From: Escherichia coli
GTDB taxonomy: Bacteria > Pseudomonadota > Gammaproteobacteria > Enterobacterales > Enterobacteriaceae
Direction: 5' to 3' (one strand)
Assembly (NCBI RefSeq): GCF_003018255.1
Contig: NZ_CP027440.1
Length of the DNA: 64,000 nucleotides
Positions 36,791 to 42,245 of this stretch are shown piece after piece. Numbering within the stretch: position 1 is the first letter of the stretch; every line of letters begins with the position of its first letter. Position numbers and translations under genes: made by a program. The notes beneath the pieces were generated by a model, which saw nothing but the letters and a program-made list of their open reading frames with translations, was not told the DNA's origin and did no database searches.

Positions 36791-36930
36791 AAGCGAAAAC
36801 TGTGCCAACTTTTAAATTGCCCCTAAAAGGCGTTATCATGCTTAACATCGTGCAAAAGGGCTGCACCATGATGTGAATGTTGCACCAATATAGTGCTTCA
36901 ATGGAAACATTAAGCACCATATTGGTGCAA
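36791..36930 (-). promoter_or_regulatory. glnA control region: sigma-54 promoter glnAp2 (TGGCAC-N5-TCGCT) and upstream NtrC enhancer sites
   Basis: Minus-strand ttggcacagttttcgct at 36791-36808; NtrC-like palindromes tgcaccaatatagtgct (36881-36897) and gcaccatattggtgca (36914-36929). Confidence 0.75.
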
Positions 36931-37080
36931 TGACCTTTGGATAACCCTTTTTATGCTCCGTGAAAGCGATCACAAAGGGACTCTGCAATACTTGTTTGCG
37001 GAGGATGTTTGTGATCCTGTTTTGTAGTGCGATTAATCCGTGTACAATAACGCGCTATTTCTAATGCCTGAGGCAAAGTT

Positions 37081-38904: not shown

Positions 38905-38921
38905 TTTCGCTTTTCAGTCAT

Positions 38922-38953
38922 AAAAAACCTGCCATCGCTGGCAGGTTTTTTTT
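38922..38953 (+). terminator. Rho-independent terminator after typA
   Basis: aaaaaacctgccatcgctggcaggttttttttt. Confidence 0.8.
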
Positions 38954-39120
38954 TACCTGTCGTGAGCGCACACCAATGCGAGTATCTCCCTTATAAGTCT
39001 GTGATTACGTCAATAGAGAGCTTTGTCACAATTATCTGCAAAGTCATACGCCGTTAATTGCTTTCTTTTTTGGCGTAAGCGTAAGATGCCTCATCTGGTT
39101 TAAACCAAAAGGATTAAACA

Positions 39121-39831
39121 ATGGCGGAGAATCAATCCACCGTAGAAAATGCAAAAGAGAAACTGGATCGGTGGTTGAAAGATGGCATCACCACGCCGGG
39201 TGGAAAACTCCCTTCAGAAAGAGAGCTGGGAGAACTGCTGGGCATTAAACGTATGACGCTGCGCCAGGCGTTGTTGAACCTCGAGGCAGAATCCAAAATC
39301 TTCCGTAAGGATCGTAAAGGGTGGTTCGTGACCCAGCCGCGATTTAATTACAGTCCAGAGCTGTCGGCGAGCTTTCAGCGGGCTGCAATTGAGCAAGGGC
39401 GGGAGCCTTCCTGGGGGTTTACCGAGAAAAGCCGTACCAGAGATATTCCCGAGACGCTCGTGCCACTGATTACAGTGACACCATCAACTGAACTCTATCG
39501 CATCACCGGCTGGGGAGCGCTGGAAGGACATAAAGTTTTCTATCACGAAACATATATTAATCCTGAAGTTGCCCCGGGTTTTATTGAACAACTTGAAAAC
39601 CACTCATTTTCTGCAGTCTGGGAAAAGTGCTACCAAAAAGAGACGGTAGTAAAAAAATTGATTTTCAAACCCGTCAGAATGCCGGGCGATATCAGCAAGT
39701 ATCTTGGCGGTTCTGCGGGTATGCCAGCGATCTTAATTGAAAAGCATCGCGCCGACCAGCAAGGCAATATTGTCCAGATAGATATTGAATATTGGCGATT
39801 TGAGGCCGTAGACCTCATCATTAATCTGTAG
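39121..39831 (+). CDS. yihL: GntR/HutC-family transcriptional regulator with UTRA effector domain (236 aa)
   Basis: ORF 39121..39831; N-terminal winged-HTH (LPSERELGELLGIKRMTLRQAL); conserved position after typA. Confidence 0.8.
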   Translation: MAENQSTVENAKEKLDRWLKDGITTPGGKLPSERELGELLGIKRMTLRQALLNLEAESKIFRKDRKGWFVTQPRFNYSPELSASFQRAAIEQGREPSWGFTEKSRTRDIPETLVPLITVTPSTELYRITGWGALEGHKVFYHETYINPEVAPGFIEQLENHSFSAVWEKCYQKETVVKKLIFKPVRMPGDISKYLGGSAGMPAILIEKHRADQQGNIVQIDIEYWRFEAVDLIINL

Positions 39832-39838
39832 GTGTTTT

Positions 39839-40819
39839 ATGGTGACAATAAATAACGCAAGAAAGATTCTACAACGTGTCGACACTCTTCCTCTTTATTT
39901 ACATGCTTATGCCTTTCATTTAAATATGCGGCTGGAAAGAGTGTTGCCTGCTGATTTACTTGATATCGCAAGTGAAAATAATCTACGTGGCGTCAAAATC
40001 CATGTTCTGGATGGCGAGCGTTTTTCTCTTGGTAATATGGACGATAAAGAACTCTCTGCCTTTGGGGATAAAGCCCGCCGTCTGAACCTTGATATTCATA
40101 TTGAAACCAGCGCTTCAGATAAGGCATCTATTGACGAAGCCGTCGCCATTGCGTTGAAAACTGGGGCATCGTCCGTACGTTTTTATCCACGTTATGAAGG
40201 TAATTTGCGCGACGTATTATCGATCATCGCTAACGACATTGCCTATGTACGGGAAACGTATCAGGACAGCGGCCTGACTTTTACGATCGAACAGCATGAA
40301 GATTTAAAAAGCCATGAGCTGGTGTCGCTGGTCAAAGAAAGTGAGATGGAATCTCTTTCCTTACTGTTTGATTTTGCGAACATGATCAATGCAAATGAGC
40401 ATCCCATCGACGCTTTAAAAACGATGGCACCGCATATTACCCAGGTCCATATCAAAGATGCCTTGATCGTTAAAGAAGAGGGTGGCCTGGGTCATAAAGC
40501 CTGTATTTCAGGTCAGGGTGATATGCCGTTCAAAGCGTTATTAACGCACCTTATCTGCCTGGGTGATGATGAGCCGCAGGTGACGGCATATGGCCTGGAA
40601 GAAGAGGTTGATTACTATGCGCCGGCGTTCCGCTTTGAAGACGAAGATGATAATCCGTGGATCCCTTATCGCCAGATGAGTGAAACACCATTGCCAGAAA
40701 ATCATTTACTGGATGCGCGGTTACGTAAAGAAAAAGAAGATGCAATTAATCAGATAAATCATGTGCGTAATGTACTACAACAAATCAAACAAGAGGCAAA
40801 CCATCTTCTGAACAACTAA
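39839..40819 (+). CDS. yihM: Sugar-phosphate isomerase/epimerase-like (xylose-isomerase-type TIM barrel) protein (326 aa)
   Basis: ORF 39839..40819; family assignment by composition and position; function unknown. Confidence 0.7.
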   Translation: MVTINNARKILQRVDTLPLYLHAYAFHLNMRLERVLPADLLDIASENNLRGVKIHVLDGERFSLGNMDDKELSAFGDKARRLNLDIHIETSASDKASIDEAVAIALKTGASSVRFYPRYEGNLRDVLSIIANDIAYVRETYQDSGLTFTIEQHEDLKSHELVSLVKESEMESLSLLFDFANMINANEHPIDALKTMAPHITQVHIKDALIVKEEGGLGHKACISGQGDMPFKALLTHLICLGDDEPQVTAYGLEEEVDYYAPAFRFEDEDDNPWIPYRQMSETPLPENHLLDARLRKEKEDAINQINHVRNVLQQIKQEANHLLNN

Positions 40820-40920
40820 TAAGTTTTAACTCATACGCTGTTAATAAAACCATTCCATATGAATGGTCGGTATCTTATTGCCTTTAAAACAGTGATTTTA
40901 AAAATCGCTTAGGGGATGTT

Positions 40921-42186
40921 ATGCTCACGAAAAAGAAATGGGCGTTATTTAGTCTATTAACATTGTGTGGCGGTACAATTTATAAATTACCGTCTCTGAA
41001 AGATGCGTTTTATATCCCGATGCAGGAATATTTCCATTTGACCAATGGTCAAATTGGTAATGCTATGTCGGTAAACTCATTTGTCACCACAGTGGGCTTT
41101 TTTCTGTCTATTTATTTTGCCGATAAACTACCGCGCAGATACACCATGTCATTCTCACTCATTGCGACAGGATTACTGGGTGTTTATTTGACGACAATGC
41201 CGGGGTATTGGGGCATCCTCTTTGTCTGGGCGCTATTTGGCGTTACTTGCGACATGATGAACTGGCCGGTCTTGCTCAAGTCGGTAAGTCGATTGGGCAA
41301 TAGCGAACAACAAGGTCGGTTGTTTGGCTTCTTCGAAACAGGGCGTGGCATTGTCGATACCGTGGTGGCATTTTCTGCGTTGGCAGTATTTACCTGGTTT
41401 GGCAGTGGCTTATTGGGTTTTAAAGCAGGCATCTGGTTCTATTCCCTTATTGTGATTGCCGTAGGCATTATCATTTTCTTTGTCCTGAATGACAAAGAAG
41501 AGGCACCGTCCGTTGAGGTGAAAAAAGAAGACGGAGCATCGCAAAACACCAGTATGACCTCGGTGCTGAGAGATAAAACCATCTGGCTTATCGCTTTCAA
41601 CGTCTTCTTCGTTTACGCGGTTTACTGTGGCCTAACATTCTTCATTCCATTCCTGAAAAACATCTATCTATTGCCCGTTGCTCTGGTGGGGGCTTACGGC
41701 ATCATTAACCAATACTGTCTGAAAATGATTGGAGGACCGATTGGTGGCATGATTTCAGATAAGATCCTGAAATCGCCGAGTAAATATCTATGCTACACCT
41801 TTATCATAAGTACCGCTGCGCTCGTACTGTTGATTATGCTGCCGCACGAAAGTATGCCGGTCTATTTAGGGATGGCATGTACGCTGGGCTTTGGCGCTAT
41901 AGTCTTCACACAGCGAGCCGTATTTTTTGCACCTATCGGCGAAGCAAAAATTGCTGAAAATAAAACAGGCGCGGCGATGGCGTTGGGTAGCTTTATTGGT
42001 TACGCCCCGGCGATGTTCTGCTTCAGTCTGTATGGCTACATTCTGGATTTAAATCCGGGGATTATTGGCTACAAAATCGTGTTTGGCATTATGGCCTGCT
42101 TCGCATTCTGTGGTGCGGTGGTTTCCGTAATGCTGGTTAAGCGTATTAGCCAACGTAAGAAAGAGATGCTGGCGGCTGAAGCTTAA
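40921..42186 (+). CDS. yihN: MFS-type transporter (421 aa)
   Basis: ORF 40921..42186; about 12 hydrophobic segments; follows yihLM. Confidence 0.75.
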   Translation: MLTKKKWALFSLLTLCGGTIYKLPSLKDAFYIPMQEYFHLTNGQIGNAMSVNSFVTTVGFFLSIYFADKLPRRYTMSFSLIATGLLGVYLTTMPGYWGILFVWALFGVTCDMMNWPVLLKSVSRLGNSEQQGRLFGFFETGRGIVDTVVAFSALAVFTWFGSGLLGFKAGIWFYSLIVIAVGIIIFFVLNDKEEAPSVEVKKEDGASQNTSMTSVLRDKTIWLIAFNVFFVYAVYCGLTFFIPFLKNIYLLPVALVGAYGIINQYCLKMIGGPIGGMISDKILKSPSKYLCYTFIISTAALVLLIMLPHESMPVYLGMACTLGFGAIVFTQRAVFFAPIGEAKIAENKTGAAMALGSFIGYAPAMFCFSLYGYILDLNPGIIGYKIVFGIMACFAFCGAVVSVMLVKRISQRKKEMLAAEA

Positions 42187-42245
42187 TTAGTGGCCGGATG
42201 TGCTTAATCCGGCCAACGAAAACCGTATCAACCGAAGTTTCAATT

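What the first reader, a model, noticed from the sequence alone, without database searches (positions are those of the whole stretch)
39121..42186. yihL-yihM-yihN: regulator, TIM-barrel sugar-phosphate isomerase-like enzyme and MFS transporter of unknown substrate
This three-gene unit has the architecture of a small substrate-inducible catabolic module and sits directly next to the variant cassette. A perfect inverted repeat ccattc-catatg-gaatgg (40850-40866) between yihM and yihN could be an operator or internal processing element. Its function is, to my knowledge, uncharacterised.
Basis: partly seen in the sequence, partly recalled or inferred. Interest (0 to 1): 0.4.

Follow-up and report, generated by a model that had tools for sequence, protein, structure and literature searches.

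The report
Self-repressed yihLMN operon, substrate unknown
The three genes are a real, portable "regulator, enzyme, transporter" unit of E. coli whose substrate is still unknown. Its on/off switch is a different palindrome in front of yihL, and the flagged palindrome is more likely a conserved hairpin in the messenger RNA.

Summary
ORFs at 39121-39831, 39839-40819 and 40921-42186 are yihL (GntR/HutC regulator), yihM (xylose-isomerase-like TIM barrel) and yihN (MFS transporter). The inverted repeat exists but was mis-typed: it is ACCATTC-catat-GAATGGT, 40849-40867.

Alone the repeat is not significant, since 8.5% of shuffled spacers hold one as good. It is not the YihL operator. Published ChIP-exo places the only strong YihL site (S/N 60) at -34..-11 of yihL, over the palindrome TGGTTTAAACCA (39096-39107). 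That 12-mer lies upstream of yihL in all 59 loci with yihL (57 related loci, the window and its identical genome), never in a yihM-yihN spacer, and is absent where yihL is absent.

The flagged repeat (HP1) and a second hairpin next to the yihN ribosome-binding site (HP2) keep their pairing across Escherichia, Citrobacter, Pseudocitrobacter, Pluralibacter, Yokenella and Raoultella. Compensatory and G·U changes point to sense-strand RNA structure.

The triad travels as one unit with unrelated flanks, independently of the sulfoquinovose cassette. I found no functional assignment in the literature. Partner genes elsewhere (RidA, two unrelated histidinol-phosphatase-like enzymes, 2-aminoethylphosphonate-type ABC transporters) suggest an amino-bearing, probably phosphorylated substrate. 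This is an ordinary kind of operon with an open substrate question.

The parts
38917..38956 (+). Intrinsic terminator of typA (left boundary of the unit): 13-bp G+C-rich stem followed by a T run.
   Evidence: Inverted repeat I1 and the hairpin AAAAAACCTGCCATCGCTGGCAGGTTTTTT. Sub-threshold Rfam STnc370 match. yihL therefore needs its own promoter.
39015..39030 (+). CRP-like site AGAGA-gctttg-TCACA (inferred class I activator site, centre about -71.5 from the inferred start of transcription).
   Evidence: A site with at most 2 mismatches to TGTGA-N6-TCACA lies 72-76 nt (66 in three Serratia loci) upstream of the operator in 40 of the 56 loci scanned, including Escherichia, Citrobacter, Serratia, Buttiauxella, Pragia, Edwardsiella, Aeromonas, Morganella and Photobacterium. 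Position. yihLM is listed as newly Crp-activated in PMC8085971. Function inferred, not shown.
39058..39087 (+). Inferred sigma-70 promoter: -35 TTGCTT (39058-39063), 18-nt spacer, -10 TAAGAT (39082-39087).
   Evidence: Positions. A TTGnnn / TAnnnT pair is kept at this distance from the operator in other genera. RpoD-holoenzyme SELEX found a promoter in the typA-yihL spacer (PMC3946193). The exact hexamers are my inference. The consensus scan did not list them because the match is weak.
39096..39107 (.). YihL operator: perfect 12-bp palindrome TGGTTTAAACCA, about +2..+13 of the inferred transcript, 14 nt before the yihL ATG.
   Evidence: ChIP-exo site, S/N 60.46, at NC_000913.2 4058436-4058459, which is -34..-11 of yihL. 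Unique in the window. Present upstream of yihL in 59 of 59 loci, 52 exact and 7 with one mismatch. Tandem copies occur in four marine loci. Absent from loci without yihL.
39121..39831 (+). yihL: GntR/HutC-subfamily regulator (winged helix-turn-helix plus UTRA effector domain), autorepressor.
   Evidence: PF00392 and PF07702. Closest NCBIfam model is PhnR at 183 bits, below the cut-off of 297. Nearest solved structures are NagR/YvoA and DasR. ChIP-exo.
39839..40819 (+). yihM: metal-dependent xylose-isomerase-like TIM-barrel enzyme with a conserved C-terminal extension and long terminal helix. Reaction unknown.
40849..40867 (+). HP1: the flagged inverted repeat ACCATTC-catat-GAATGGT. The conserved core is CCATTC-N5-GAATGG at 40850-40866.
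   Evidence: Sequence. Stem kept and loop free in 15 sequences from 6 genera. 98.9% of cells paired, 2 pairs with compensatory change, 1 U·G. An independent Pseudocitrobacter genome has CCATCC/GGATGG. Unique in the window. No YihL ChIP-exo site here. Not terminator-like.
40891..40909 (+). HP2: hairpin AGUGAUUUU-A-AAAAUCGCU ending 1 nt before the yihN Shine-Dalgarno sequence AGGGGA (40911-40916).
   Evidence: Stem sequence differs between genera but stays complementary: GATTTT/AAAATC, AAATGATT/AATCATTT, AATGGCG/CGCCATT, GTGGCA/TGCCAT. In MAFFT register 5 of 7 pairs have changes on both sides. 0 of 500 shuffles reach the covariation score. Hairpins next to the Shine-Dalgarno sequence also occur in Morganella and Acinetobacter.
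40921..42186 (+). yihN: 12-TM-type MFS transporter, substrate unknown.
   Evidence: PF07690. Only weak similarity to the PgtP/OPA model, 70 bits against a cut-off of 408. No solved relative by sequence. The knockout lowers uptake of many dyes (PMC8131027).
42191..42215 (.). G+C-rich hairpin TGGCCGGAT-gtgctta-ATCCGGCCA 4 nt after the yihN stop. Probable 3' end or stabiliser of the unit and its right boundary.
   Evidence: Shared with K-12 although the downstream cassettes differ. Homology ends near 42235. No T run, so not a canonical intrinsic terminator.

Best explanation
yihL-yihM-yihN is one self-contained uptake/catabolic operon of a familiar kind.

Promoter and operator. Transcription starts from a weak sigma-70 promoter in the typA-yihL spacer. 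A class-I-positioned CRP site probably helps it (inferred). YihL, a HutC-type dimeric repressor, shuts it off by sitting on the 12-bp palindrome TGGTTTAAACCA, which overlaps the transcription start. Binding is shown by published ChIP-exo. Repression and induction by a ligand are inferred from the family.

Enzyme and transporter. YihN imports the inducer or substrate. YihM, a divalent-metal TIM-barrel enzyme of the xylose-isomerase-like superfamily, converts it in one step by isomerisation, epimerisation or beta-elimination. Partner genes in other bacteria are a canonical RidA imine deaminase inside the operon, two unrelated histidinol-phosphatase-like phosphatases, a Na/Pi-cotransporter-PhoU protein, 2-aminoethylphosphonate-type ABC transporters, and PhnR-like or MocR-like regulators. 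They make an amino-bearing, anionic and probably phosphorylated small molecule the most likely substrate class. They also suggest the YihM reaction leads to an enamine or imine. All of this is inferred.

The flagged palindrome. It is not an operator. It is the first of two conserved stem-loops in the yihM-yihN intercistronic mRNA. HP1 lies about 30 nt after the yihM stop. HP2 abuts the yihN ribosome-binding site. An A/U-rich stretch separates them. The likeliest role is to set the yihN:yihLM expression ratio. HP1 could protect the 3' end of the upstream segment and HP2 the 5' end of the downstream segment after endonucleolytic cleavage, or HP2 could damp translation initiation of the membrane protein. 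This role is inferred.
For: Operator:
- ChIP-exo of YihL-8myc in MG1655 gave three sites. One dominates, with S/N 60.46 against about 5 for the others, at NC_000913.2 4058436-4058459, and it is not marked as RNAP-bound.
- yihL starts at 4060447 in NC_000913.3. With the 1,977-bp version offset the site is -34..-11 and contains TGGTTTAAACCA.
- The 12-mer is found about 25 nt upstream of yihL in 59 of 59 loci from Enterobacterales, Aeromonas, Photobacterium, Neisseriaceae, Acinetobacter, Marinobacterium and Rhodobacterales. All 60 exact copies in 1.1 Mb of loci lie there.
- The nearest solved relatives are NagR and DasR.

Single unit:
- L-M-N order is kept in about 55 loci with unrelated flanks.
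- No operator, no + strand promoter-like site and no terminator-like site lies in the M-N spacer.

CRP:
- A conserved site lies at a fixed distance.
- Literature: PMC8085971. YihL co-clusters in expression with CRP-dependent sugar regulators (PMC6055005).

Hairpins:
-.
- G·U cells occur on the sense strand only.

Enzyme:
-.

Substrate class:
- RidA sits between the regulator and yihN-yihM in Proteus and Providencia, and between yihM and yihN in Photobacterium.
- A HisN/IMPase-type phosphatase is present in 10 loci and a HAD-IB histidinol-phosphatase-like gene in Pseudogulbenkiania.
- Na/Pi-PhoU protein.
- PhnT2/PhnS-like ABC transporter, 432 bits against a cut-off of 458.
- PhnR is the best model for YihL.
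Against: - No direct evidence here for co-transcription of yihN. Databases list the transcription unit as 'yihLM' (seen).
- The transcription start, the -10/-35 hexamers and the CRP role are inferred. The E. coli CRP half-site AGAGA is poor, 3 of 5.
- The hairpins are short (6-9 bp) and not significant in a single sequence.
- HP1's stem is conserved in sequence rather than freely covarying, which would also fit a protein-binding site.
- The element is confined to one clade. Aeromonas has a 43-46-nt spacer with no hairpin.
- The shuffle control does not account for relatedness of the sequences, and the structure was derived from them.
- YihN lacks a convincing organophosphate:phosphate antiporter signature.
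- The enteric operon carries no phosphatase or RidA.
- The fold search cannot tell an isomerase from an eliminase or a hydrolase.
Confidence: 0.6

Rival explanations
1. The 40849-40867 palindrome is a DNA operator. A dimeric transcription factor (YihL at a secondary site, or another regulator) binds CCATTC-N5-GAATGG and controls an internal promoter for yihN. yihN would then be a separate transcription unit.
For: The two half-sites are conserved in sequence while the 5-bp spacer is free, as expected for a dimer-binding site. Databases treat yihLM and yihN as separate units. A weak TTGCCT-16-AAAAAT promoter-like pair lies downstream in the spacer (sequence).
Against: No YihL ChIP-exo peak there. 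The motif bears no resemblance to the HutC-type operator, and the flanking A/T that would make YihL half-sites is not conserved. Pseudocitrobacter and Raoultella change both arms so as to keep pairing, including a U·G that is a mismatch on the other strand. Other genera have a hairpin of unrelated sequence at the same place. The promoter scan lists no + strand site in the spacer. HP2's covariation is unexplained by this model.
Confidence: 0.12
2. The hairpins have no function. They are short A/T-rich inverted repeats kept by shared ancestry in a closely related clade.
For: 8.5% of shuffled spacers contain an equally good repeat. Fold z = -1.49. The element is detectable only in one clade. Aeromonas lacks it. 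ERIC insertions are tolerated in the spacer, and in Enterobacter JUb54 one replaces HP1.
Against: The rest of the spacer has diverged beyond easy alignment, while the 12 stem positions are about 96% conserved and the loop is not. There are double changes that keep pairing in 7 of 13 pairs, 87% pairing against 26-48% when the partner is slid, and 0 of 500 shuffles reaching the covariation score.
Confidence: 0.18
3. YihM is what RefSeq calls it, a sugar-phosphate isomerase/epimerase. YihN is an organophosphate:phosphate antiporter that imports a rare sugar phosphate, which YihM converts directly into a glycolytic or pentose-phosphate intermediate. No nitrogen chemistry is involved.
For: Closest folds are ketose 3-epimerases, IolI and other sugar isomerases. 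The only named similarity of YihN is to the PgtP family. A one-enzyme pathway needs a substrate one step from central metabolism. CRP control and co-expression with sugar regulators fit. Phosphatases are neighbours in other lineages.
Against: The YihN score is far below the family cut-off, 70 against 408. The regulators (PhnR-like, MocR-like), the ABC transporters (2-aminoethylphosphonate/polyamine type, peptide/opine type), RidA and an agmatinase-like gene all point to amines. There is no kinase, aldolase or dehydrogenase partner in any of 80 loci.
Confidence: 0.2
4. yihLMN is an accessory part of the adjacent sulfoquinovose-type (yih) cassette and works on a sulfosugar-derived metabolite.
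For: Physical adjacency in Escherichia and some Citrobacter. Both are CRP-linked in PMC8085971.
Against: Adjacency is lost everywhere else. The triad has unrelated flanks in each genus. In close relatives the same yihN end abuts the K-12 cassette, the variant cassette or yihX directly. The cassette has its own DeoR regulator. The YihL operator does not occur in the cassette.
Confidence: 0.04

Closest known systems
NagR (YvoA) of Bacillus subtilis and DasR of Streptomyces: HutC-subfamily GntR repressors with 'dre' operators
   Same: Same domain pair, GntR winged helix plus UTRA. They are the best solved-structure matches. The operator is a short perfect palindrome of the TGGT-N4-ACCA / GT-N-TA-N-AC type. 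From my own knowledge the dre core is TGGTCTAGACCA, against TGGTTTAAACCA here. Both are autoregulatory and control a transporter plus catabolic enzyme.
   Different: About 25-30% identity only. The central four bases differ. The effector is unknown, whereas NagR and DasR bind GlcNAc-6-P or GlcN-6-P. The regulon appears to be a single operon.
PhnR of Salmonella (2-aminoethylphosphonate utilisation regulator, TIGR03337)
   Same: Best-scoring named family for YihL, aligned end to end, 183 bits. In alphaproteobacterial relatives the YihM gene sits beside PhnT2/PhnS-like ABC transporter genes.
   Different: The score is well below the equivalog cut-off of 296.75. There are no phnSTUV, phnW or phnX genes in the enteric unit. 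No evidence of C-P bond chemistry.
frl operon of E. coli (FrlR HutC-type repressor, FrlA transporter, FrlC xylose-isomerase-like epimerase, FrlB, FrlD)
   Same: From my own knowledge it has the same three ingredient types: HutC/UTRA repressor, secondary transporter, and a PF01261 TIM-barrel enzyme acting on an amino-sugar-type (Amadori) compound.
   Different: frl has a kinase and a deglycase that yihLMN lacks. YihM is not close to FrlC: no NCBIfam model matches it. The transporter families differ.
Xylose-isomerase-like TIM-barrel enzymes: Art22 isomerase (8z1i), D-tagatose/allulose 3-epimerases, IolI, IolE, AsbF, 3-keto-glycoside lyases/hydratases, endonuclease IV
   Different: 11-20% identity. 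YihM has extra invariant His, Arg and Tyr residues, plus a conserved 80-residue C-terminal extension with a 38-residue terminal helix. The reaction cannot be transferred from any of these.
Intercistronic stem-loops that set differential expression within operons (e.g. the malE-malF REP hairpins, pap operon processing)
   Same: From my own knowledge these are hairpins between cistrons flanking an A/U-rich segment. The upstream hairpin can block 3' exonucleases, and a hairpin at the new 5' end can protect the downstream segment.
   Different: HP1 and HP2 are much shorter and weaker than REP elements. No processing site or transcript end has been mapped here. This is an analogy only.

Membership tests
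GntR family, HutC subfamily (YihL) | N-terminal GntR winged helix-turn-helix domain | tested here: met
   PF00392, 70.2 bits against a cut-off of 27, residues 8-70.
GntR family, HutC subfamily (YihL) | C-terminal UTRA (chorismate-lyase-like) effector domain | tested here: met
   PF07702, 75.1 bits against a cut-off of 23.8, residues 91-230, full length of the model.
GntR family, HutC subfamily (YihL) | Binds a short palindromic operator with a GT-N-TA-N-AC core | tested here: met
   TGGTTTAAACCA contains GTTTAAAC. It lies inside the S/N 60 ChIP-exo site and co-occurs with yihL in 59 of 59 loci.
GntR family, HutC subfamily (YihL) | DNA binding relieved by a small-molecule effector | not testable with these tools
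   No ligand data. Needs thermal-shift or EMSA screening.
PhnR (2-aminoethylphosphonate regulator) equivalog TIGR03337 | Score at or above the curated cut-off | tested here: not met
   183.1 bits against a cut-off of 296.75.
PhnR (2-aminoethylphosphonate regulator) equivalog TIGR03337 | Adjacent phnSTUV transporter and phnWX catabolic genes | tested here: not met
   The neighbours are yihM and yihN only.
Xylose isomerase-like TIM barrel, PF01261 (YihM) | Pfam gathering score | tested here: met
   35.9 bits against a cut-off of 31.1.
Xylose isomerase-like TIM barrel, PF01261 (YihM) | Beta/alpha-barrel fold matching solved members | tested here: met
Xylose isomerase-like TIM barrel, PF01261 (YihM) | Conserved Glu-Asp-His-Glu metal-ligand set at strand ends | tested here: inconclusive
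   E151, D178, H204 and E254-256 are invariant in 41 sequences and fall at predicted strand ends. Their assignment as ligands was not checked on coordinates.
Organophosphate:phosphate antiporter family (PgtP/GlpT/UhpT) (YihN) | Family model score at the cut-off | tested here: not met
   TIGR00881, 70.5 bits against a cut-off of 407.75. Only general MFS_1 membership is met, 93.9 against 33.4.
Intrinsic (rho-independent) terminator (HP1, and the hairpin after yihN) | G+C-rich stem followed within 2 nt by a T run | tested here: not met
   Neither site is listed by the terminator scan. HP1 is A/T-rich and followed by TCGGTATC. The 42191-42215 stem is followed by ACGAAAAC.
Known RNA families (Rfam 15) | Covariance-model match in the yihM-yihN spacer | tested here: not met
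   No match at E<=1 between 39000 and 44000.
Class I CRP-dependent promoter | Match to TGTGA-N6-TCACA centred near -61.5, -71.5 or -82.5 | tested here: inconclusive
   AGAGAgctttgTCACA (8 of 10) at 39015-39030. Orthologous sites match 9 of 10 at a fixed distance from the operator. The -71.5 position depends on an inferred transcription start.
Sulfoquinovose (sulfo-EMP, yih) gene cluster | Conserved co-location with the cassette genes | tested here: not met
   Co-location only in Escherichia and some Citrobacter. Three alternative right flanks occur in close relatives and unrelated flanks elsewhere.

The most novel reading that the evidence does not exclude
The YihM family is a small, sharply delimited branch of the xylose-isomerase-like TIM barrels. 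It may catalyse a reaction not yet described for this fold: a metal-dependent, PLP-independent deaminating isomerisation or beta-elimination, or a phosphodiester cleavage, of an amino-organophosphate common in animal tissue. Candidates are an ethanolamine-, choline-, serine- or histidinol-type phosphate ester or diester. The enamine or imine product would be finished by RidA, and the phosphate removed by histidinol-phosphatase-like enzymes in lineages that import the ester through ABC systems. yihLMN would then be a new nutrient-acquisition pathway of gut and fish-associated Enterobacterales, Aeromonas and Photobacterium.
Probability: 0.15. Interest if true: 0.6.

Novelty: new member of a known kind. 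Interest (0 to 1): 0.33.

Why it matters
yihL, yihM and yihN belong to the still-unassigned part of the E. coli K-12 genome. This work does not name the substrate, but it makes the question directly testable.
- It fixes the operator, TGGTTTAAACCA, so a yihL deletion or an operator-reporter fusion can serve as a biosensor for inducer screening.
- It shows that the unit is autonomous and unrelated to the sulfoquinovose cassette beside it.
- It narrows the candidate substrates to amino-bearing, probably phosphorylated compounds, using partner genes in other phyla.
- It redirects the proposed EMSA away from the yihM-yihN palindrome, which is better tested as an RNA element.

If the YihM reaction proves new for its fold, that would be of moderate interest to enzymologists and gut-microbe physiologists. 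The regulatory architecture itself is textbook.

Tried and rejected
- YihL half-sites in HP1. In E. coli the left arm reads AAACCA and the right TGGT, but the flanking bases are not conserved (TCCA in Citrobacter and others) and there is no ChIP-exo signal. Rejected.
- A 17-codon upstream ORF, 40859-40912: ATG in the HP1 loop, stop overlapping the yihN Shine-Dalgarno sequence. The start codon is missing in E. whittamii and other genera. Rejected as chance.
- HP1 as a terminator. There is no T run and the scan does not list it. Rejected.
- Rfam search of the region. Nothing in the spacer.
- Covariance model of HP1+HP2 searched over the window and 33 loci. It found only the same clade and no second copy.
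- Domain fusions of YihM relatives. Ten long proteins scanned, with no informative extra domain.
- Contexts of distant family members through the look-up of encoding contigs. Contigs were short or the genes non-operonic, so this was uninformative.
- Sequence search of solved structures with YihN. No hit.
- Literature searches for the gene names, b-numbers, operon names and the operator string. No functional assignment and no description of the operator. The paper describing Art22 is not in the library.
- A recollection that a transporter database files YihN with glycerophosphodiester uptake proteins could not be checked. I use it only as a lead.

Full report
WHAT IS THERE

The window is E. coli chromosome, 100% identical over this stretch to strain JNE23-011 and 95-99% identical to most other E. 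coli. RefSeq annotates them as follows:
- yihL, 39121-39831, 236 aa
- yihM, 39839-40819, 326 aa
- yihN, 40921-42186, 421 aa

Domain and family assignments:
- YihL has a GntR winged helix and a UTRA effector domain, so it belongs to the HutC subfamily. Its best named family is the 2-aminoethylphosphonate regulator PhnR, but at 183 bits against a cut-off of 297. Its nearest solved relatives are NagR/YvoA and DasR.
- YihM just passes the Pfam threshold for the xylose-isomerase-like TIM barrel and matches no NCBIfam model.
- YihN is a general MFS protein with only a faint resemblance to PgtP-type organophosphate antiporters. It has no solved relative by sequence.

A strong intrinsic terminator of typA lies at 38917-38956, so yihL needs its own promoter. 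A G+C-rich hairpin at 42191-42215 follows yihN. Homology with K-12 continues through it and stops near 42235, where this strain carries a different cassette from K-12.

THE PALINDROME AS AN OBSERVATION

The sequence is CCATTC-CATAT-GAATGG at 40850-40866, and one more pair extends it to 40849-40867. It is unique in the window. A repeat of this size is not remarkable on its own: 8.5% of shuffles of the 101-bp spacer contain one with arms of at least 7 nt. The spacer as a whole folds no better than shuffles, z = -1.49. Whether it means anything therefore depends on comparative evidence.

THE REAL OPERATOR

Gao et al. 2021 (PMC8464067) ran ChIP-exo on epitope-tagged YihL in MG1655 grown in glucose minimal medium. 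Their supplementary list gives three sites. Two are weak, with S/N about 5. The third has S/N 60.46, lies at 4058436-4058459, has yihL as nearest gene, and is the only one of the three not flagged as RNAP-bound. Reads were mapped to NC_000913.2.

In NC_000913.3 yihL starts at 4060447. The two versions differ by 1,977 bp in total length. That figure and the placement of the insertions upstream of this locus are my own knowledge, with an uncertainty of 1-2 bp. The site is therefore -34..-11 of the yihL ATG, with sequence tgcttcatcTGGTTTAAACCAaaa. It corresponds to window 39087-39110, and the perfect palindrome TGGTTTAAACCA lies at 39096-39107.

I fetched 80 loci encoding YihM relatives from a species-level genome collection. 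Counting the window and its identical genome JNE23-011, 59 loci encode a YihL orthologue, and every one carries this 12-mer immediately upstream of yihL. It is exact in 52 and has one mismatch in 7. Six of those seven are a paralogous triad with TGGTTTATACCA. All 60 exact copies in 1.1 Mb of locus sequence are at this position. Marinobacterium and Oceanospirillaceae have 3-4 tandem copies, and a Rhodobacterales genome has 2. Loci where the regulator is instead MocR-like or YheO-like have none. No locus has a copy between yihM and yihN.

The motif has the GT-N-TA-N-AC core typical of HutC-type operators. It resembles the dre site of NagR and DasR, whose core is TGGTCTAGACCA (my own knowledge). 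I found no paper describing this operator.

PROMOTER MODEL (INFERRED)

Upstream of the operator, a TTGCTT / 18 nt / TAAGAT pair at 39058-39087 would start transcription near 39094. That puts the operator at about +2..+13. A CRP-like site, AGAGAgctttgTCACA, lies at 39015-39030 and would be centred at -71.5.

Sites matching TGTGA-N6-TCACA at 8-9 of the 10 specified positions lie 72-76 nt (66 in three Serratia loci) upstream of the operator in 40 of the 56 loci scanned, including Serratia, Buttiauxella, Pragia, Edwardsiella, Aeromonas, Morganella and Photobacterium.

Independent literature agrees in outline:
- An RpoD-holoenzyme SELEX promoter was found in the typA-yihL spacer (PMC3946193).
- yihLM is listed as newly Crp-activated (PMC8085971).
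- YihL co-clusters in expression with AraC, MelR, GalS, RhaR and similar regulators (PMC6055005).

THE UNIT IS AUTONOMOUS

Clustering all ORFs of the 80 loci shows that only YihL, YihM and YihN recur together, in 59, 75 and 60 loci. The order L-M-N is kept in Enterobacterales, Aeromonas, Photobacterium, Neisseriaceae and Acinetobacter, while the flanking genes differ in every genus.

Next to yihN, close relatives show three states:
- the K-12 arrangement, ompL-yihO-yihP-yihQ
- the variant cassette of this window
- yihX directly, with no cassette

The sulfoquinovose-type cassette is therefore an independent insertion site neighbour, not a partner. The yihM-yihN junction is present in 4,294 of 5,426 complete E. 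coli genomes, so the unit is accessory even within the species.

THE FLAGGED REPEAT IN COMPARISON

In an alignment of the yihM-yihN spacers of 15 genomes from six genera, most of the spacer has diverged, but CCATTC...GAATGG is kept while its 5-nt loop varies freely (catat, cataa, tataa, ttcga, ctgga, caggg, caggt, actgt, ctgat, attaa). RNAalifold predicts exactly this hairpin and nothing else.

Changes in other genera preserve pairing:
- Pseudocitrobacter vendiensis has CCATCT/GGATGG: one compensatory pair and one U·G.
- Raoultella changes another pair on both sides.
- An independent Pseudocitrobacter genome, not used to define the structure, has CCATCC/GGATGG.

A second hairpin, HP2 at 40891-40909, ends one base before the yihN Shine-Dalgarno sequence AGGGGA. 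Its stem sequence differs between genera and stays complementary:
- AGTGATTTT/AAAATCGCT
- GCGATTT/AAATCGC
- AAATGATT/AATCATTT
- AATGGCG/CGCCATT
- GTGGCA/TGCCAT
- AATGATT/AATCATT

Counting pairs on the unedited MAFFT alignment gives the following:
- HP1: 98.9% of cells paired.
- HP2: 77% of cells paired. Three sequences are out of register, which lowers the figure.
- 7 of 13 pairs have changes on both sides.
- Overall pairing is 87%, against 26-48% when the partner column is slid.
- No shuffle of 500 reaches the covariation score.

The caveats printed with that tool apply. The sequences are related and the structure came from them.

The G·U cells are on the sense strand, where they are legitimate in RNA. 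On the opposite strand they would be A·C mismatches. Buttiauxella, Serratia, Morganella and Acinetobacter have hairpins of unrelated sequence at comparable places. Aeromonas has a short spacer with none. ERIC-like elements are inserted in three species.

The covariance model finds the element only in the Escherichia-Citrobacter-Raoultella clade and nowhere else in the window. Neither hairpin looks like an intrinsic terminator, and no + strand promoter-like site is listed in the spacer.

My reading is that these are mRNA stem-loops in a polycistronic transcript. They most likely tune yihN relative to yihLM through processing, stability or translation initiation. This part is inference. The operator reading is not excluded, but it is disfavoured by the ChIP-exo result, the wobble pairs and HP2.

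WHAT THE ENZYME AND TRANSPORTER MIGHT DO

Identity is never above 20%, so the reaction cannot be transferred. E151, D178, H204 and E254-256 are invariant, as are several Arg, His and Tyr residues and an unusual C-terminal extension. The family is small, with 60 clusters at E<=1e-30 among 1.84 billion representatives.

The most useful hints come from partner genes in other lineages:
- In Proteus and Providencia the unit is a YheO-like regulator, RidA, yihN and yihM, tightly spaced. Beyond the unit the called genes fall into different clusters in Providencia and Proteus.
- In Photobacterium, RidA sits between yihM and yihN. This RidA passes the curated cut-off of the canonical subfamily.
- In rhizobia, the YihM gene follows a MocR-like regulator and an ABC transporter whose ATPase scores 432 against a cut-off of 458 for the putative 2-aminoethylphosphonate type. 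An IMPase-family protein closest to histidinol-phosphatase HisN follows it, at 256 against 275.
- In Pseudogulbenkiania, an unrelated HAD-type protein occupies the equivalent place. It is again closest to histidinol-phosphatases and is followed by a Na/Pi-cotransporter-PhoU protein.
- In Marinobacterium, a peptide/opine-type ABC system plus the HisN-like gene is divergently transcribed from yihL-yihM across the tandem operators.
- An agmatinase-like gene follows YihM in two marine genomes. A true choline dehydrogenase lies nearby in rhizobia and a Rhodobacterales genome.

Taken together these favour an amino-bearing, anionic and probably phosphorylated substrate, and chemistry that yields an enamine or imine. 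They do not identify the compound.

Against over-reading:
- The enteric operon has neither RidA nor a phosphatase.
- YihN shows no convincing organophosphate-antiporter signature.

Published phenotypes are only indirect:
- Lower dye uptake in a yihN knockout (PMC8131027).
- yihL lower in EHEC grown in ground beef with background microbiota (PMC5543532).
- yihM on a list from an overexpression screen for oxidant resistance (PMC8228696).

COMPARISON AND VERDICT

In architecture this is a textbook HutC-repressed and probably CRP-activated operon, closest in logic to the NagR/DasR and frl systems. The genes, and in a supplementary table the YihL binding site, are already public. The substrate and the reaction are not.

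New from this analysis:
- identification of the operator sequence and its strict co-evolution with yihL across three proteobacterial classes
- the demonstration that the unit is mobile and unrelated to the neighbouring cassette
- a pair of conserved intercistronic hairpins, one of which is the flagged palindrome
- a narrowed substrate class

I rate it a new member of a known kind, of modest interest. It has a small chance of hiding a new reaction for this fold.

Noticed in passing
window 42246-about 50800: Variant of the yih (sulfoquinovose-type) cassette: DeoR regulator (-), PfkB kinase (-), sulfolactaldehyde-reductase YihU (+), DeoC/LacD-type aldolase (+), a Zn-dependent alcohol dehydrogenase not in the K-12 cluster (+), two MFS transporters (+), aldose 1-epimerase (+). 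No ompL, yihQ glycosidase or yihS isomerase. Homology with K-12 breaks near 42235. The same cassette is found in Escherichia sp. MOD1 and two Citrobacter genomes.
   Followed up: partly
window 36892-36999 (+): Strong Rfam match to the ES222 sRNA family (133 bits, gathering score 62) in the glnA-typA spacer, upstream of typA.
   Followed up: no
window 40859-40912 (+): A 17-codon ORF (MNGRYLIAFKTVILKIA) starts at the ATG in the HP1 loop. Its TAG stop overlaps the yihN Shine-Dalgarno sequence. The start codon is absent in E. whittamii and other genera, so it is probably chance.
   Followed up: yes
L013:1543-1775, L014:7961-8185, L019:7973-8189 (yihM-yihN spacers): ERIC-like repeat elements are inserted in the yihM-yihN spacer of Enterobacter sp. 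JUb54, Serratia silvae and Morganella psychrotolerans. In Enterobacter the insertion replaces HP1 but leaves HP2.
   Followed up: partly
L045, L049, L050, L051, L053, L054 (and L039-L041, L055, L058, L061): Some Citrobacter and Buttiauxella genomes carry a second, paralogous yihL-yihM-yihN triad (about 60% YihM identity, about 51% YihN identity) elsewhere in the chromosome. One paralogue group has the operator variant TGGTTTATACCA, which might limit cross-talk between the two repressors.
   Followed up: partly
L060:6125-6210, L063:6116-6198, L072:6128-6213, L078:635-672: Three to four tandem copies of the YihL operator lie between yihL-yihM and a divergent ABC-transporter/phosphatase operon in Marinobacterium and Oceanospirillaceae. 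A Rhodobacterales genome has two copies upstream of yihL.
   Followed up: partly
E. coli population: The yihM-yihN junction is found in 4,294 of 5,426 complete E. coli genomes. About a fifth of strains lack it, so the unit is accessory within the species.
   Followed up: no
L036:4620-6972; L066:7948-8736 and nine other loci: Two non-homologous phosphatase families, both closest to histidinol-phosphate phosphatases (HAD-IB type and IMPase/HisN type), sit beside the YihM gene in different lineages. This looks like non-orthologous replacement of the same step.
   Followed up: partly
window 42191-42215: A 9-bp G+C-rich, REP-like hairpin lies between the convergent yihN and DeoR genes, without a T run on either strand. 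It is conserved in K-12 although the downstream gene differs.
   Followed up: partly
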